Positions 7,007 through 42,700 of a stretch of DNA of 64,000 nt are shown one piece after another. This DNA is from Podarcis liolepis (Eukaryota). Position 1 is the first letter of the stretch, and each line of letters starts with the position of its first letter. The notes beneath the pieces were generated by a model. It saw only the letters and a list, made by a program, of their open reading frames with translations, had not been told where the DNA came from and did not search any database. The DNA lies in NCBI GenBank assembly GCA_965112155.1, contig OZ218103.1, one strand, 5' to 3'. The position numbers and the translations under genes are program-made.

Positions 7007-8283
7007 TATAGCTCTTTCTCAGAATGGCAGGTGGGTCATGGGTGGCCAACCTTCCGCAAGCATCAAGGCATTTGAAGCACACCTGGACCAAGCGTAGGAG
7101 GGCTTGCAGGCATGGCTATGGCACGGAATCAGCCCCTTAGCTTGCCTGCTGCTCCCATGCTGTGCTGCTGCTGCCTGCAATAGCCCAGACTGGAAGCAAA
7201 ACTTCATTGTGGGTTTAAGAACTAGTTAGCTATGGCAGCCCACAATCTATTGTTCTGGAATTGACATTGGTCACCTTTGGGTGCAGTTATTTCAATGTTT
7301 AACGGGCAGTCTAATCTGGAAACCCATCACCTTTTTGAACCAATAAATAGTTGACAGACAATGTCGAATAATACTTTTGCTAGTCTAAAAGGCTGAAGAA
7401 TTGCTGAGTTGCACAGCAACATTTGTATCCTCATCACACCAGAAACACCACTTTCTATGTCTATAAATTTGGGCCCTCTGTTTTATCCTAGCATGCGAGT
7501 GGAGAATGAGACTATCAATGCCATGAGTGGTACGCTAGGCTTTCATGGGGATTGTTTTAGTTTTGTGCCTCATTTTCCACAACTGTGAATCAGGTGTGTG
7601 TGCGCGCACGTGCACAAGTGAGAGGCAGTGCTGGAATTTAAATAAAATATTTGTGAATTGCTTATAATGCCACATTGGTGTAGTGCCTAGGGGGGAAATG
7701 AGGGGAAGGGTCCCCACAAATACAGCTGTTTGCCCTTCTGGAGTCAGAGGCCTTACTTGCAGGGCACCCACAGCCTTGTCTTAATTTCATGTAAGTGGGA
7801 TGGAGTGAAAGCCAAAATGGAGATGGAAGGATGAGCGGAGAAAGCCTTCTGCAATCCGTCCCCTTCCCAACAGCAGTGAGCGCAGGTGTGACCACACCCA
7901 CTTTTGGTTTGGGCTCGGTCCCTGACTGGCTTCAATCCCCCACCTCTGAAGGAATGCAGCCCTCAACAGGGCTAGGTGAAGTTTCCCAATTCCTGGTCTG
8001 TCTATTCCTTTTTAAAAATATATCCAGCTTTTGACTGTACCTGGATATATATTTTTAATATATGTGGCCATGTGATAATTTTAGCTTATAAATTTTATTG
8101 TTTAATGTCTTAATTTGTATATTAAGGTACTTTTATAGCTCTGTTTAGAGTAGGTAATGTCTTGATAACATAAACGTTTTACGATTTTTGTATCAATCTA
8201 GCATATTTTCTTTTAATTGTTGAATGATTCTGTGTACATTGTGGCAGCCTTTGGCTATGTGCAATAAAACTGACTGACTGACT

Positions 8284-13100: not shown

Positions 13101-16100
13101 GAAGTCAGGTTTAAACCCAAAAGAAATTGGGTTTCTACCCAAAATGTTTATACAGCTCTCAGAGCCATGGTCACATGTCCAATAGACAATTTCTGCTCTC
13201 AAAGCCTTGGATGCATAAAAACACTGCCATATATTATCACTTAGTGGTCAGTGGTAAAAAGTGTCTGTGTAAGGCGGTGGCATGTTGTTCTAGAGGGATC
13301 ACAATAGGTAGACTTATGATTCTGTTTGCTTAATTTAGTGGCAATACTGAGGTTAATTTCAAGCTTGTTTGAGTCCCTTGATGTTTAACGTCTTCTAAGG
13401 CAGGAGAAGATAAGATTAATCTTCTGTGAAAAGCTGTTGGTGATTATAATTCCACTCTAACACTTACTTACTTCTGTCTTGCTCTCTGAATGAAGAGCTG
13501 AAAAATATTTAAGAACCAGGGGACTGTGCACTTAGGTTTTTGAGACCCAGATTGGAAACTGTTTTCAATGCTTGATTGTGTATCAATTCAATTAGGAGAA
13601 CTGAAGAAGTGCATCTGGATTTACATGGCTATGGAGAGGAGTCATGTGGGTACAGATCTGGATCAGCAAAACATTATGTTGGGAATGGCTCATAGACTGA
13701 AGCATGAGTGGTTCCTAAAAGCATGATGATCAGTAGTACATAGAATTCTCATGAGAGTAAGCTACACTTACACTATTAAATGCTATTTGCAAAGGGTAAA
13801 ATCCCCAAATATAGCACACTATGCTCAAGTCCATGGCATTCAGTGGGTCTGTAGCAATTTCCTCCACTTGATAGGTTAGCCATATCATTACAGTCTGTAT
13901 TACCTGCCATTCATCCTGAGTACAGATCCTTCTCCTCTGGAATCTCACATGGCTTCAGAGGCTTGTTTGACTGTGTGTTGTGTGTGTGTGTGTGTCCAAC
14001 CTAGGTGCTTGAAGCACTCTTGTCACGCAAAACAATTTGGGATCATGTCTTCATTCTGTTTGTGTTTTCCTTTTTGAATGACTTGGCGGGGCGTAGGTGT
14101 CCAGCCACATACAGGTTCTAGCTCGGAAGAAGGTGCGAGAGTACCAGGTTGGCATTAAGGTACGTTGGAGACCCTGCCCATGCGTCCGTGGTGTGTGAGC
14201 ATGGGCAGCCCCCTCTCCTTCCTCTCCTTTCCTCTGGTTGACGGCTCTGCTGTTTTCCCCCCCTCTCCTTCTGCTTTTCTCTCTGCAGGTCTCTAGCCAC
14301 TTGCAGGTTCTAGCCAGACGGAAATCTCGTGAGATTCAGTCGAAGCTGAAGGTACGCGCTTCCCCGGCTTTCCCACCTTTTGAGCCATGGCCATGCTGGC
14401 AACTAACATGCTGCGCTCTGTGGTTGGTTGCCACTCTTTCCCCCCTGCTTGTTGTGTCTTTGCTCCCCTCCCTTTGTTCCTGGGACCTGATAATTTTCAG
14501 AATGCCGCTGAGGTGTGAGAGAGAATCAGAAGGAAAAAGCGATAGAGCACTTCTGCGTGGCAGGATCTGGCAAGGACAAGCCACCTCTAAACAGTCCAGT
14601 AAAGCTGTCCCTTGTCAGCTTGGAGAGTGCATTTCCAGTCACAACTGGAGCCTTCAGGTGGTGACATAGCAAGGAGAACTTCTAGAGTTCTCCACAGTCC
14701 ACCTGCCATCTTTGGTATATCCATGTAAGTGCTCCACTGTTGTTACAGGAACGGGAACCTTGCCTAAATCAGGAAAGCTGAGTAGGATCCATGGCGGCTC
14801 ATGAAATGTGCAGTCGTGGTATTAAACAGCCACTTCTGCTGAGCAACAACTGAGTGGAAGGGTCCCTCCCAGTAGAGGCATAGGACAGAACACCCTTCTC
14901 CTTCTGTTTCCATTCAACAGAAGAAGCCATTTCCTTCTGCTGTGCTACTTCACTGTCTACCACTCTGTAGCATTAAGATTTTCTAGGTAGCATTGGAGCT
15001 CTGGAGCAGGTTTTTGTTTTTTTAAAAAATGTTTTTCAAATAAGTGTTACTGATGTTCAATGATGCATCAAGCAGGGCTGACCATTAAAGTAGCAGACCC
15101 AAGGCTGCAATGAAACAAAACCAAAACACACTCCCCCACCCCACCCCAAAGCAGAAGAGCCAGACTTTTGGAAAGCATTCCGTGCTGGATGAGGATGGGG
15201 AAGTATACAGGGGGGGGACCCCAAAGTTTTGTAGGTACAAATTCTGATGGATTTATGCAGCTGAGGCTCATATAGCAGGCATAGGAATTTGTGCAATCAG
15301 TGCCTCTGTCATACTTCTAGTCTATATGGCCAACAGTCTTTAATACCTGGGGAGGATATTTGGCTAAGTTGGCCAGTGCAATGGTACAAGGCAATTAGGA
15401 TGGAGATGCACAGAACCAGAGATGAGTGTCTTCCATCATAGGCCTGCTCTTGCTGATTCAGGATGCTTGGACCAAGAACATGGGACCAGGAGCCAAGGAA
15501 GTTGAGCAGGGATAAAACTGGAGAGCTTTTATCCTGTGATTGCCTTTCTTTCTGTGGTTGGCTTTTCTTTTCTTCTTTCTTCTGTAACTTGAGATTGGCT
15601 AACCTTTCCTATTACCCTTTCCTCTGTGTGTTCTGTGTATTGTGATTTGGGTTTTTGAGGGGGGAGGGGGGTCTTAATGAATGGTTAGTGGTTGAAGGTT
15701 ATTTTGAACTGATTCTGGTTCTCTGTCTATTCTTGTGGTTTGGCCTATGCATCGGAAAGTACCTAGAAATTCCAATCTTTTCAGCTGTTCAAATTTATTT
15801 AGTCCAAAATACTCTCCCTTCCTTTTCTAGAGTCCACAAAGCAGGAGCTGCCATTACCAGGTTGGGAAAACTCATAAATAGTGTGCCGTCCCTCCCACCA
15901 TGCCCTCATTCCTCTACCCCAAACTAAGAAAATAATTGGCTGGTTTATAAGAAGATTAAATTGTGTGCATAAAGTGGCCCACACCCAAAATTCAGTTAAT
16001 AATAAAAACTCTCACAGTTGAAGAACAGCATGGAATGAAGGAAAATATCTTTTTAAAAGGATCTGTCCTTGTAGTCAGTAGCACACATTATATGATGAAC

Positions 16101-18999
16101 AGATGTAACTGTAGAACACTTTTACATATATGTTAATTCTAGTCAATAGCATGTCTTCCACAAAAGACAGACAATACATTGCCTGAGAGTTAGGGCTAGC
16201 ATGCTAGTCAACTGATGCTTGTTAGATTATGGCAAGATTTTGTCAAATATTCAAAAAATGCCCATGGCAGTGTTGTTGAGTTTTTAAAAATTATTATATC
16301 GTTATGGTCTCATTTGTTAAGTAGGGGAGGAGCAAATGTATCTTGCCTCCTAAGCTTACAGCTGACAGGGACAAACCTAGAAGCACATCAAAGCTTTTAA
16401 TTTAAGGCATATCTGAACAGAAATGCAAACAGTCATCAGTGGTATTGCCTAGTAAGTAAAGTGTCTGACTAGGGCGAGGGAGTGCTCAGAAAATAGGTTT
16501 CCCAACTCTGTCCTTGCAGTACTGTCGTTGCAAACCTATTTGAGAGGACCTTTTAAGTGCATGCCCATAAGTTCTGCCCTGTATCGCTGAACCACTCTAC
16601 CTCCAACCAGTGTGCTTTCGTGTTCTGCAATGGCAGAAGACTGGGCAAAGCAGTGGTATGCAGGTCCAGTTTACCACCTTGAGTCTTTAAAGAGAGAGCC
16701 AAAGGTAAACGGAGAAAACTGCAGAACATCTATTGGCCCATTTATCTACATCCAGGCTTAGGACTCTGCAAATTACGGTAGCCCCTCACAAATACCAAAG
16801 AATGATTTAACTACCTAGGTACTTTTTACTCCCCTTGCACTACTCCAAGAGTTATGTGCACGCAACTCAAGAAGCCTAAGCTTGTCCACCTACAGCAACA
16901 CCCTGTTTATTTTGTATAGCTTTGCAGGCAGGAGAGTGCAGTGACCAGATCTAGTGCATTGTTTGCACTAGTAACTCTGCAATCTATAAAATAATGTTGC
17001 TTTCAGTACCCAGACCGGCATCAGATTTGGAGAACCACAGAACAGGGCGGTCTGTTCTCACTTCCTGCACATCTTCCTTGATTTGTAAAATTGAAGAAGT
17101 TACCTATTGAGATAAGCCTCATACCATCCGCTCCTTTCTTCCTCATTCCCGTTGTGCCACGTGCCCCAGATCATCAAGTGGATTCAGTAAAACAGGCTGC
17201 ATTAGAAAGCAGCCCGGGACAGATGTAGTTTGTTTACAAAATGAAGTCTGACATCCTGTGATGCTTTGAAGTCCCATTATTGATACCTGTTATGGATTAT
17301 GCAGACTCCCCCCCTCCCCGCAGTGCCCATTATGACAGCAGAGGCACTAACCATATTTCTTTTCTTTCCTCCCTCCTCTTCACACAGGCTATGAACTTGG
17401 TAAGTGCACTTCAGTCTTGTTTCTGCCCCATTAAGTGTTCTCTACTTGGTGATTGTCTTTATCCTTATGCTGAGTGTTTAATTTTGTTGTATGCTGTGTG
17501 CTGCCTTGGTATCTATACTGGTGAAGGAGGGACCATACGGCTTTTAAATAAATAAATCCCCATGAATAGTATTAGAGAGTGCAGATGAGGTGCAGGGGTG
17601 CTGGAAGTGCAAAATTAATAGCTGAGATGAGAATCTTTTGGATACTTTGGACCATACTGGCTAAAAGCCAGCACCTTAAATGGATGTTTGTGTTCTCCTC
17701 CTTTGATCTACAGACATGTTGCACTGCTCTAAAGGATTTATTATCTATGACTAGTAAGATCCCTGGAAAAATGAGCTTTGGGGGGAGGGGAAGTGACATA
17801 AAACAGTTTGCTTGAATAGCTCACTGTCCCCCATTAATTTGTCTTTAGTGGGCCGTCAAGGCCAGTGTTAGTAACTCTCCCTTCTGCTTCTCCTCTTCTG
17901 TCCTGTTTTGAAGGATCAGGTCTCAAAGGACAAGGCTCTGCAGAGTATGGCTTCCATGTCGTCGGCACAGATCGTATCCGCCAGTGTCCTGCAGAACAAG
18001 CTCAGCCCCCCTCCTCCACTCCCTCAGGCTGTCTTCTCTGCTGCTCCCAGGGTAAGGGATGTTCCAACACTTTTCCTGCCTGGTTAGGAAGGTCAGGCCC
18101 AGAAGGACAGCATGGAGTCAATGCTTCTGCAAGACAGCGGCTTCTCTTATAGGGCTAGGTGACTAACGCAGAGATGGTTCCAGAGAGGATATTTATTTAT
18201 TAACTTATCTGTAGTTGTGTTCCTGACCCAATAGGCTTAGTTTAAATCAGACATCATAAGCGTAATTTACGTATTCCACACCCAACATCCATGTCTCCCT
18301 AATTTTCATTTTTGCCCAGTTTACTTAAAAATAAAATAAAAATAAAACCTAACTCATGCTCTTCCTCCCAACACCTTTCACTGTCACATATGGGAATGGT
18401 TCTCCAGTTGTTGTTAAAACTCCTTTGAGACTCAGCTAGCATGGCCAACGGTCAAAGAAGATGGGAGTTGTAATCCAATAACATCTGGAAAAACCATAGG
18501 TTCTCCATCCCTGCCCTAATTCTTCTTATCTGCACATGCCATCAGCACCACCACCAAAGAGTAGCATATCTGACCCACCCTCTCCCCTTAGTGGCTCACA
18601 AGAGAGTGGAGGACATGTACTGACTTGGTGTGAAACTCCCAGCTGTAGTCTTGACTCTCCTCAGCTGTGTTGTGGTATTTCCACACTATTCTAAAAAACT
18701 GACTAGCCGTTGCCATTCTGTAACAATAAACAACTTAAACAACCCTTTAACAACTTTGATGAACCTGAACAACTGTAGCTGTGAAGTCAGATGGTAGGAA
18801 TATGCATGACAATGTTTTCTGTGTTCATTTTTTGTTTCCTCAGTTTTGGAGTGGGCCTATCCCAGGACAGTCTGGACCTTCTCAGGAGTAAGTGAAAAGC
18901 AATTGTTACGTTTGGTGGAGAATTAAAAGGCTTAGCAGTTAGAGGACGGTACTTGCATAGCATTTCTGAATTGTTCCACAGAAATAGATGCCACATTGT

Positions 19000-39700: not shown

Positions 39701-42700
39701 TAGTTCTCGAAAGTTTTGGCTCCCGAACACTGCAAAACTGGAAGTGACTGTTCCGGTTTGTGAACTATTTTTGGAAGCTGAACATCTGACGGGACTTCCG
39801 ATTGGCTGCAGGAGCTTCCTGCAGCCAATCAGAAGGCGCGCTTTCGTTGTCGAATGTTTTGGAAGTCAAATGGACTTCCAGAATGGATTCCATTCGACTT
39901 CCAATTTGGGACTGTACTGGCTTGGACTTCACAAGTGATACTTGTTTTTTACATCCTATTTGCCAGCAGGGGGTGTCCATGAACAGCCAAGGCTTTTTAT
40001 TTTCTTGGGTGGCACTTTCTTAAAAATGAACAAGACACACAACCTTTTAAAGAAGGATTTTTTGTGTGTTCTCTCAAATGTATGCATCATTAGAAAGCTG
40101 CTGTTCATTCTTATCCCAAGGTACAATAAATGCAAGCCACATTGCATAGATGAATAGAAGCTGCCTGTTAAAGGATTAAGTGGTTAAAGGATTATGTATC
40201 AATTCTGTCATTTGTATTGATGTAAACCTCTAGAACGTATTTTGTATAGCTAAGCATTTAGCTTTATCCTCAGCATATTGTATTTTATTTTATTGCTATG
40301 GCTAGTAGGTAATGCAAATAAAATTTCTGTGTAATGCCAGGCAAGCAGTGAGTGCAGTCCCAAAGATCAATAAACTAACTTCTGCTTCTGGGACTGTCTC
40401 TAAATTATCTTAGCGTTGAGGAGGAATAGAAAGCCGGCACAATGAAATGGGTGAGAAAAACTCCCACAGGAGGCAGCCTTAATGAGCAGTATGATTTTAC
40501 AAGCTTGGTACTAACACAGGAGCGTCAGTGTTGCCTAGTCTGCTGAAGCCTGAAAGCTACATGTGGAAATATTTTTGAGGTCTACTTACACTTGGCCATG
40601 CTGGGAGTTGTAGTGTAACGACATCTTGAGATCATTCTTTTGGTGAAGCCTGGGTTACATGATCGGAGGATATTATTCTGAGGCACCTTTTGGGAGATAA
40701 CAAACCCTGCCTGCAGAAACAAGGGACTAGTTCATCCATTCACACAACCAGCATTTCGGACGCAACTGTGGTTGGTATTAATGCAAATAAGCTTTGGAAT
40801 CGCAAGCTCCCGTCATCGTCTCTGGCATAGTCGCAAAGAGGAGATGGAAGCTTTCGCTTCTATTTTCAGCTAACTGTGGCTCCTTGTTATTCAGTTACTT
40901 GGTCAAATACTGGTAAGTCTGAAATGTAGCAGCGCTGGAGAACCTGTATCCCTCCCAATGCTGGTAAATTCCACCAGCCCTAGCTTGATTAGACAATAGT
41001 CAGGGGCGGTGAGAGCTATAGCCCACCAGCATTTGGTGGGGGTCACAGGCTCCCCATCCCTGGTCCAAGGACTCAAGTCAACTTCAATCTGTAATCTAGT
41101 TTCTCTAAATCATTGTTAAGATAAACCACAGTTCCAACGCTTGGGCTTAACAATAATGCATGGTTAGTTGAAAGTGGAAGCAAGAGCTTGTGATCTTGCT
41201 GGAGCAGCAGAAGAATGCGCACACAAGCCCAAGATTTAGACCAGTAATGCAAAACAGTAGTTTAGCGTTGTATCTGTACCAGATGGTACTCTTTGCTGAC
41301 AGTCTTGGATCATCCGTAGGTCCTTGTGTCTCTCTGAAACTGAAAACCCACTGTCTGTTATAGAATTCTTACCTTGTTGCTTTTGATCTCTGCCACAGGC
41401 TCCCCAATCAGTTTAAAGTGGGGCAGCAAGGCGAGTACATAGGCTGTTGCTTTGCGATTTCACATATATTACTATACAAGTGTGAATTTCATGTGTGTCT
41501 TGTTTTCTTCCTCCCAAGCTCCATGCGGAGTACTGCCGGGAGAAGGATGCTTACCTGCCACACCGAGTAGTTCAAGCCTGGGAACTTGCCCAGTTTATAC
41601 AGTAAGTCATGGGGAGACTCCAGAAATCTTTATAATGAGGTTTGTGTGCGCACACTTTGTCCCTCTCTCTGTTAGCTGGTTTCCCTCCTTGGCAGTAGTT
41701 CAGAGCTCTGGCTTGGAACATACTCAGTCCATCTAATGCTATCGCTCCAGCGACAGAATGAATGGGTGGATAGGGGGAGAGGATGCAGCCATGGTTTTGG
41801 GTGTGTGGTAGAATTCAAGTCTAACGTGGCTTAGATCTCTCATGACAAAAAACATCCTTGTATCATTGAGGGCTGCTTGTTTCCTCTCAGTCTGTGGCAT
41901 CTTCTCATCTTCCCAGACATACTTCAAAAGGAGCTGATGTGGTGCTGCTTGGTGGGGATCTGAACATGCACCCAGAAGACGTGGGCATCAGGCTGTTGCG
42001 AGGTTGGGCAGGGCTTCGGGACTCCTTCATTGCTGCAGAGAAGGTTGAGGTGAGTCTCCAGGTACCACCCTATGAAATGGTCCTTTGGTCACTCAGTAAA
42101 AGGAAAAGAAAGTTGCCCTTGGGGCCTGGAAACTATAACCTTATCTTTATTGGGGTAAGAATGTCAAGAGATAGGTTACACCAACCAGATTAAAGGTGCC
42201 TCTTCCATCCACCCGGCTCTCTCTCTCTTTTGCCTTCCTGAAAGCTCCGGGCTCTGCAGGCTGCACTGTCAGCCAGACTCAGTTGGCAGCTTCTTCCACA
42301 ACACAGCTTGCTGCAGATGCTCTAGTATCTTTTATTAGAAGGGTGGGAAACTTCAGGCCCAGTGATCAAAAGTGACCCTCCAGGCCTCCCTATCTGGCTC
42401 CAGGCCACACTGGAATGTGTCCTTCAACTCTGATAATGCACATTGCTTGTCTTGATAGAGATTATGTGAGAGTGTGTGTAGAAATAAGCCTACGGTACGC
42501 AAATGTGCATTAGGTATTCCATCTGCTTTTGTCCCTGGCCCCACCCACTACTGGCATATGGCCCTTGAAACGTTGCCCAGGAGGGATTGCAGCCCTCAGG
42601 CTGAGAAAGTTCCCCCACCTCTGGTTTTTTTTAGAACTGAGAATTCAGACTTTGGTCTTGCTCCTAGGGTGGTGAGGATGGCTCTACACTCTTGCCCACC

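What the first reader, a model, noticed from the sequence alone, without database searches (positions are those of the whole stretch)
14174..14241. Perfect 10-bp hairpin in the 129-nt intron between the duplicated exons: candidate steric mutual-exclusion switch
Seen: CTGCCCATGC (14174-14183) pairs perfectly with GCATGGGCAG (14199-14208) around a 15-nt loop. The 3' arm contains GCATG (RBFOX core). A candidate branch A (GTTGAC, A at 14241) is 81 nt from the exon A donor. Known: when the donor-to-branch-point distance falls below about 50 nt, joining of the flanking exons is blocked (alpha-tropomyosin exons 2/3). Inference: folding removes about 35 nt, leaving roughly 46 nt and preventing A+B joining, while protein binding at GCAUG could open the stem and allow dual inclusion. 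I do not know of this mechanism being described for TEAD genes.
Basis: partly seen in the sequence, partly recalled or inferred. Interest (0 to 1): 0.75.

Follow-up and report, generated by a model that had tools for sequence, protein, structure and literature searches.

The report
Lizard TEAD3 intron hairpin, leaky damper
A perfect 10-base-pair inverted repeat lies in the short intron between two duplicated exons of a lizard TEAD3 gene; it is predicted to fold and would likely damp, not block, joining of the two exons, and it appears perfect only in lizard-like sequences, weaker in birds and absent in mammals and fish.

Summary
The hairpin is real: arms 14174-14183/14199-14208, 10 bp, 15-nt loop, in the 129-nt intron between the duplicated helix-3 exons of a lizard TEAD3. 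A stem this long arose in 3 of 3000 intron shuffles. The candidate branch A (14241, +82) has support: its motif recurs in a fish TEAD3 intron (+62) and in this genome's TEAD1 (+48). The strict-switch reading is weak. The perfect stem fits only one other lizard-like record; eight bird records allow 6-7 contiguous pairs with no compensatory change; mammal and fish records lack the arms. Donor-to-motif spacing runs from 37 to 136 nt across vertebrates. The 46-nt linker lies inside the range modelled as spliceosome-compatible for yeast zipper stems, and 100 of 100 shuffles also fold below 50 nt. A+B isoforms are annotated in lizards. The GCATG is a pentamer, not TGCATG. The exon pair is already catalogued in human. 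Best reading (0.35): a lineage-limited stem that restores near-ancestral spacing and damps A+B joining. No RNA reads were examined, so isoform ratios and the branch point remain unmeasured.

The parts
14097..14159 (+). TEAD3 exon A, 63 nt, in frame; first copy of the duplicated exon that ends the TEA domain
   Evidence: same peptide as human ENST00000338863 exon in PMC8373072 supplement
14160..14288 (+). 129-nt GT-AG intron between exons A and B; no AG between +50 and +127
14167..14171 (+). 5' strand of a predicted outer helix (pairs with 14214-14218); context-dependent; bird translations force changes here
   Evidence: bird peptides
14174..14183 (+). 5' arm of the 10-bp stem (intron +15 to +24)
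   Evidence: fits without mismatch only 1 of 36 intron-reading protein records
14184..14198 (+). 15-nt loop; last base A14198 (+39) is a weak distal branch candidate; both forced changes in the other lizard-like record fall here; about 7 nt longer in most bird records
14199..14208 (+). 3' arm of the stem, starting with GCATG (RBFOX-type pentamer) and ending in a cryptic CAG
   Evidence: fits without mismatch 10 of 36 records, all lizard- or bird-like
14209..14235 (+). C/U-rich tract between hairpin and branch motif (possible PTB site, or pyrimidine tract of a distal branch point; inferred)
   Evidence: sequence
14235..14246 (+). conserved branch-point-like motif, candidate branch A at 14241 (+82, -48)
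14247..14288 (+). polypyrimidine tract and acceptor of exon B
14289..14351 (+). TEAD3 exon B, 63 nt, in frame; second copy
   Evidence: same peptide as human ENST00000639578 exon
14397..14433 (+). second hairpin downstream of exon B (11-nt arms, 91% complementary) whose 5' arm holds ACTAAC at 14402-14407, at +51 as in the fish locus L014; likely QKI-type element (label recalled)

Best explanation
A perfect 10-bp inverted repeat lies between the exon A donor and a conserved branch-point-like motif; it is predicted to fold in the pre-mRNA and would leave about 46 unpaired bases between the two, which likely damps rather than blocks joining of exon A to exon B. Shown: the repeat, its position, the motif in three DNA sequences, and TEAD1's +48 position. 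Inferred: that A14241 is the branch point; that the ancestral intron had its branch point within about 50 nt of the donor (TEAD1 +48/+49, carp-like TEAD3 +37/+43); that the lizard and bird TEAD3 intron lengthened and the stem folds the extra bases away; and that the effect is a leaky kinetic brake. Exon choice itself is likely set by proteins at other sites (weak exon A acceptor, C/U tract, ACTAAC after exon B). A+B is in frame and keeps a full TEA domain match, so strict exclusion is probably not required.
For: Stem rare in shuffles (3 of 3000) and predicted at probability 0.97 or more in 4 of 4 contexts. Branch motif aligned in lizard TEAD3, fish-like TEAD3 L014 and own TEAD1; peptide signatures of it in 26 of 33 intron-reading records (signatures picked by eye). 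TEAD1 keeps it at +48 in this genome and, by translation, +49 in two named fish records, with no stable fold (z +1.22). In the other lizard-like record P0183 both forced changes fall in the loop and none in the 20 stem bases. In birds the 3' arm is fixed and a stem between the same two segments still removes 38-47 nt in the inferred sets, giving linkers near 43-50. Leakiness: 3 of 15 listed lizard records carry A+B; A+B scores a full TEA match.
Against: No compensatory pair seen. Bird records allow only 6-7 contiguous pairs in register (8 of 8 tested) and their inferred folds are no more stable than shuffles (median z -0.9 to 0.0). None of the 26 non-sauropsid records holds the 3' arm. Mammal spacing is 114-136 nt with no such stem. 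In silico shortening is unspecific: 100 of 100 shuffles reach 50 nt or less and 43 of 100 match the window. A 46-nt linker starting at +15 and ending 32 nt before the branch A meets all the zipper-stem limits in PMC12350175, so it may not hinder at all. Two loop changes against none in the stem is too few to be significant. All cross-species stem evidence except L014 and TEAD1 comes from translations, not DNA.
Confidence: 0.35

Rival explanations
1. The stem is incidental. The 3' arm is conserved as a primary sequence (a protein-binding site), and full complementarity arose in lizards without a splicing role.
For: 3' arm unchanged in 10 of 10 lizard- and bird-like records while the 5' arm changed in birds without compensation; bird folds not better than shuffles; 8 such stems in the window; the loop is also fairly conserved between lizards and birds.
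Against: 3 of 3000 by chance in this intron; outer 6-7 pairs remain possible in all 8 bird records tested; loop takes the indels and substitutions.
Confidence: 0.3
2. OGDH-like design: the real branch point is distal (A14198, A14201 or A14207; +39 to +48) in front of the C/U tract, so exclusion is steric by plain distance and the hairpin displays or hides that branch point.
For: 78-nt stretch without AG and a pyrimidine tract right behind the hairpin. Fish locus L014 has a good branch consensus at +36 in the matching place. OGDH has distal branch points 25-41 nt from the donor inside an 8-9 bp hairpin (PMC7969005 passages).
Against: These three A's fit the branch consensus poorly and two are inside the stem; the motif at 14241 fits and is the deeply conserved one.
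Confidence: 0.12
3. One reading: the folded stem prevents A+B joining, and RBFOX binding at GCAUG opens it to allow dual inclusion.
For: 46-nt linker under the roughly 50-nt threshold cited in PMC5740500 and PMC7969005; GCATG kept in lizards and birds; with the outer helix the linker would be 29 nt. RBFOX2 regulates another TEAD1 exon (PMC9410899).
Against: Pentamer only, found in 77 of 496 tiles; stem and motif not kept in mammals or fish; A+B annotated in lizards and widely elsewhere; linker within the compatible range; outer helix context-dependent and altered in birds. PMC9410899 reports TEAD1 exon 5 did not respond to RBFOX2 (unpublished data).
Confidence: 0.1
4. The stem is a zipper stem that helps removal of the A-B intron by holding donor and branch point close, favouring A+B.
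For: Meets every geometric limit given for zipper stems: linker 46 (42-85 allowed), starts 14 nt from the donor (10 needed), ends 32 nt before the branch A (20 needed). Zipper stems diverge fast in sequence in yeasts.
Against: The intron is short and +82 needs no bridging (inference). The limits come from yeast modelling and may not hold for a vertebrate.
Confidence: 0.1

Closest known systems
Human TEAD3 tandem exon duplication, event 210 (ENST00000338863 / ENST00000639578; PMC8373072 supplement)
   Same: Same two 21-residue exons; listed as an internal substitution event dating to Vertebrata.
   Different: Human intervening intron is 189 nt by the listed coordinates, against 129 nt here; the rows seen give no mechanism.
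TEAD1 duplicated exons in this genome (L012)
   Same: Same exon pair, same branch-like motif, similar intron start.
   Different: 89-nt intron, motif A at +48, no stable hairpin. A mouse transcript with both exons is treated as full length in bioRxiv 10.64898/2026.04.17.719138.
OGDH exons 4a/4b (PMC7969005)
   Same: Duplicated exons, short intron, 8-9 bp hairpin near the donor, long pyrimidine tract, long AG-free zone.
   Different: There the mapped branch points lie within the hairpin, 25-41 nt from the donor; here the best candidate lies 33 nt beyond it at +82 and nothing is mapped.
alpha-tropomyosin exons 2/3 steric exclusion (41 nt as cited in PMC7969005; original paper not read)
   Same: Idea of a minimum donor-to-branch distance.
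   Different: Exclusion there is by linear distance; here linear distance is 81 nt and would need folding.
Yeast zipper stems (RPS17B; PMC12350175)
   Same: Stem between donor and branch point, 42-85 nt linker, 10 nt or more from donor, 20 nt or more from branch.
   Different: Described in yeast introns as aiding splicing; not in a short vertebrate intron between duplicated exons.

Membership tests
Steric-interference mutually exclusive exons (Tpm1 2/3, OGDH 4a/4b) | Tandem homologous exons of equal frame | tested here: met
Steric-interference mutually exclusive exons (Tpm1 2/3, OGDH 4a/4b) | Branch point under about 50 nt (linear) from the upstream donor | tested here: not met
   best candidate A14241 is +82; only poor-consensus A's lie at +39 to +48
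Steric-interference mutually exclusive exons (Tpm1 2/3, OGDH 4a/4b) | Experimentally mapped branch point | not testable with these tools
   no lariat data for this species; human tables were cut and showed no row in the A-B intron
Steric-interference mutually exclusive exons (Tpm1 2/3, OGDH 4a/4b) | Joined product essentially absent | tested here: inconclusive
   A+B in 3 of 15 listed lizard records and 30 of 88 records (two by intron read-through); annotation only, no reads
Steric-interference mutually exclusive exons (Tpm1 2/3, OGDH 4a/4b) | Long AG-free zone and long pyrimidine tract before the second exon | tested here: met
   no AG from +50 to +127
Zipper stems (PMC12350175) | Stem of 6 bp or more, linker 42-85 nt, 10 nt or more from donor, 20 nt or more from branch | tested here: met
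   10 bp; 14 + 32 = 46 nt, if A14241 is the branch point
Zipper stems (PMC12350175) | Formed in vivo and aids splicing | not testable with these tools
   needs probing and mutants
Evolutionarily conserved RNA structure | Compensatory base changes in the stem | tested here: inconclusive
   none seen; one other lizard-like cluster, birds break inner pairs; translations only
Evolutionarily conserved RNA structure | Stem present across amniotes | tested here: not met
   3' arm fits 0 of 26 non-sauropsid records; bird folds not above shuffles; no Rfam match at gathering score
RBFOX site | GCAUG pentamer | tested here: met
   14199-14203; fixed in bird two-frame sets
RBFOX site | Full UGCAUG hexamer (recalled as the high-affinity form) | tested here: not met
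   preceded by A
RBFOX site | Binding and splicing response | not testable with these tools
   needs CLIP or knockdown

The most novel reading that the evidence does not exclude
Steric exclusion rebuilt by RNA folding: the ancestral TEAD exon pair was kept apart by a branch point within 50 nt of the donor (still so in TEAD1 and carp-like TEAD3); when the TEAD3 intron grew in lizards and birds, a hairpin evolved that folds it back to 43-50 nt and places a GCAUG in the stem, so that a protein can switch the steric block off. Mammals lost the stem. This would be a regulatable, structure-made version of tropomyosin-type exclusion, with a hard-wired paralogue as built-in control.
Probability: 0.12. 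Interest if true: 0.72.

Novelty: new variant of a known kind. Interest (0 to 1): 0.36.

Why it matters
The two exons encode alternative versions of the last, DNA-reading helix of a Hippo-pathway transcription factor (helix role recalled), so what decides A, B or A+B could change TEAD3 activity. If a stem sets the effective donor-to-branch distance, this 129-nt intron and its 89-nt TEAD1 twin make a small natural test of whether the roughly 50-nt steric limit counts bases or space, and of which sign a stem at the 46-nt edge has in vertebrates. As it stands it is a lineage-limited hairpin in a known exon pair, without functional or read evidence.

Tried and rejected
Relative genomes: none held. 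Pattern scans: exon A pattern in metagenome contigs, 0 hits; exon B pattern, 1 hit in metagenome contigs (L014), 0 in genome contigs and 0 in viral contigs. Sequencing runs: 24 listed, no RNA holder listed on record; 13 of 18 holders carry half or more of the 35 words; no reads were laid, so this is not used as evidence. The search of 50%-identity representatives was not available. Rfam: one sub-threshold match elsewhere (16.8 bits against 35), rejected. 'Effective distance' as a discriminator: rejected, because shuffles, TEAD1 and the fish intron all shorten in silico. Isoform tallies as frequencies: rejected; they are gene models, and one search was biased to A+B (48 of 55 new records with the upstream exon). 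The first DNA alignment had two references off by one base and was redone. The tally step crashed and was redone. Human branch-point tables: TEAD3 A-B intron not found, but the files were cut when stored and 15 of the 27 Taggart files were never searched. TEAD not mentioned in the main texts of PMC5740500, PMC7969005, PMC9741552, PMC7954323 or in the searched supplements of the first two. Earlier findings of this scan: none. Two-frame bird sets failed for 2 of 7 records.

Full report
Setting. The window carries a TEAD3 gene on the + strand. A downstream exon is 100% identical to TEF-5/TEAD3 records of skink, geckos and wall lizard, and the genome is 1.57 Gb, so I call it a lizard. Exon A (14097-14159) and exon B (14289-14351) are 63-nt in-frame copies separated by a 129-nt intron. 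The pair is known: the supplement of PMC8373072 lists TEAD3 event 210 with the same two peptides, dated to Vertebrata; its coordinates give a 189-nt human intron (supplement rows only).

Observation. Confirmed. The arms are exact complements around a 15-nt loop. Such a stem arose in 3 of 3000 shuffles of the intron, 5 of 496 real tiles hold one, and the window has 8. Its pairs have probability 0.97 or more in four contexts. Energy z-scores are -2.88 and -2.48 for the hairpin alone, but -1.39 for donor-to-branch and +0.16 in 411 nt. An outer 5-bp helix is predicted at 0.17-1.0 depending on context. GCATG is a pentamer preceded by A and occurs in 77 of 496 tiles.

Branch point. A14241 is the only A between +49 and +127. 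Its motif aligns with a TGGTTAC motif in a fish-like TEAD3 intron from a metagenome contig (L014, 137 nt, A at +62) and in this genome's TEAD1, which has the same duplicated exons around an 89-nt intron with the A at +48. Two named fish TEAD1 records that read into the intron place it at +49 by translation. Neither L014 nor TEAD1 folds better than shuffles between donor and motif (z +1.65 and +1.22). L014 also has a good branch consensus at +36. None of these is mapped by experiment.

Conservation of the stem. No related genomes were available, so I used predicted proteins that read through the intron and asked which bases their translations allow. This gives bounds, not sequences; unnamed records were placed by likeness to named ones. 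Of 36 such records, the 3' arm fits without mismatch in 10, all lizard- or bird-like, and in 0 of the other 26; the 5' arm fits in 1, the lizard-like P0183. P0183 forces two changes, both in the loop; the other four members of its cluster read the same through the hairpin. Eight bird records allow at most 6 or 7 contiguous pairs in register (a ninth, P0233, was not in this step). Combining a named shorebird record with other birds in a second frame worked for 5 of 7 records; mean pairing of the homologous helix was 0.0-0.6. In the three sets folded further, a stem between the same segments removed 38-47 nt but was no more stable than shuffles (median z -0.2, -0.9, 0.0). These sets mix species and are soft. 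No compensatory change was seen.

Spacing. Hand-picked peptide signatures of the branch motif were found in 26 of 33 records: +82 in lizard-like (2, one cluster), +85 to +92 in bird-like (9), +114 to +136 in mammal-like (8), +37 to +62 in fish-like (6), +40 in one unplaced record; 7 had none. So TEAD1 spacing looks frozen near the threshold and TEAD3 spacing does not. Subtracting the stem gives 46 nt here and about 43-50 in birds, close to TEAD1. Against it, a path-length measure on folded ensembles fell to 50 or less in 100 of 100 shuffles and matched the window in 43 of 100, so the arithmetic alone does not discriminate.

Is 46 nt a block? PMC5740500 and PMC7969005 cite a limit of about 50 nt of linear distance (passages). 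PMC12350175 modelled stems on the yeast A complex and accepts those with 42-85 linker bases, at least 10 nt from the donor and 20 nt from the branch (passages). This hairpin meets all three (14 + 32 = 46). It therefore sits at the edge, and the sign of its effect is open. With the outer helix the linker would be 29 nt and outside those limits, but that helix is unstable by context and altered in birds. PMC7969005 shows a different design for OGDH, with branch points inside a hairpin near the donor; the 78-nt AG-free zone and the C/U tract behind our hairpin leave that reading possible.

Are the exons exclusive? Of 88 TEAD3 records with this region, 24 have A only, 33 B only, 30 both (two by intron read-through), 1 neither. 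Of 15 listed members of a 30-member lizard cluster, 3 have A+B, 5 A, 6 B, 1 neither. A+B models also occur in carp-like fish, where the motif is near +40, and a mouse Tead1 transcript with both exons is treated as full length (bioRxiv 10.64898/2026.04.17.719138, passages and section 17 part 1; its supplements were not seen). These are gene models and say nothing of levels. A+B keeps a full TEA match. No reads were examined, so the ratio in lizards is open.

RBFOX. The pentamer is kept in lizards and birds but not as this arm in mammals or fish. PMC9410899 shows RBFOX2 acting on the TEAD1 12-nt exon 6 and mentions no response of exon 5 (passages). A better conserved element lies after exon B: ACTAAC at +51 both here and in L014, against 14 of 533 tiles by chance; the QKI label is recalled.

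Literature. Ten searches of the open library listed no paper on a hairpin or branch point in this TEAD3 intron; subscription papers are largely missing. I also saw passages of PMC5378181 and PMC7404189, term searches of PMC9741552 and PMC7954323 without TEAD hits, and cut supplements of PMC5378181 and PMC5959240. The latter has three rows that, with a recalled coordinate offset, fall 41-48 nt before human exon A, and none in the A-B intron in the part stored.

Verdict. Observation confirmed; branch candidate strengthened; strict RBFOX-opened switch unlikely (0.10). I commit to a lineage-limited stem that folds the intron back to near-ancestral spacing and damps A+B joining (0.35), ahead of an incidental stem (0.30), an OGDH-like distal branch (0.12) and a helping zipper stem (0.10). 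Interest 0.36.

Noticed in passing
window 14402-14407; L014 downstream of exon B: ACTAAC at exactly +51 after the exon B donor in both lizard and fish-like TEAD3, inside the 5' arm of a second hairpin (14397-14433); bird and some fish translations allow it too. Likely a QKI-type enhancer of exon B (label recalled); not seen after TEAD1 exon B.
   Followed up: partly
L012 3192-3280 (minus strand); G000:C1: This genome's TEAD1 has the same duplicated exon pair with an 89-nt intron, branch-like A at +48; fish TEAD1 translations show the first 50 nt nearly unchanged. A better candidate for plain steric exclusion than TEAD3.
   Followed up: partly
window 14045-14096: Exon A acceptor is unusual: the pyrimidine tract ends about 21 nt before the AG, followed by a purine-rich spacer. 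A14053 (-44) fits the branch consensus; human branch rows in PMC5959240 fall at about -41 to -48 if a recalled offset is right.
   Followed up: partly
L014 intron +30 to +38: Fish-like TEAD3 intron has a second, good branch consensus at +36, at the place matching the lizard loop end A14198.
   Followed up: partly
window 17388-17399: 12-nt micro-exon (four residues), counterpart of the RBFOX2-regulated TEAD1 exon 6; present or absent across annotated records.
   Followed up: no
L011 (G000:C14): A third TEAD gene of this genome shows a single copy of the helix-3 exon in the 10 kb read.
   Followed up: no
window 39800-39830 and 8012-8058: Other perfect inverted repeats: 14 bp with a 3-nt loop, and 12 bp with a 23-nt loop.
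   Followed up: no
P0286-P0288: Lacertid records carry an extra 10-residue segment between exon A/B and the micro-exon, suggesting another small exon.
   Followed up: no
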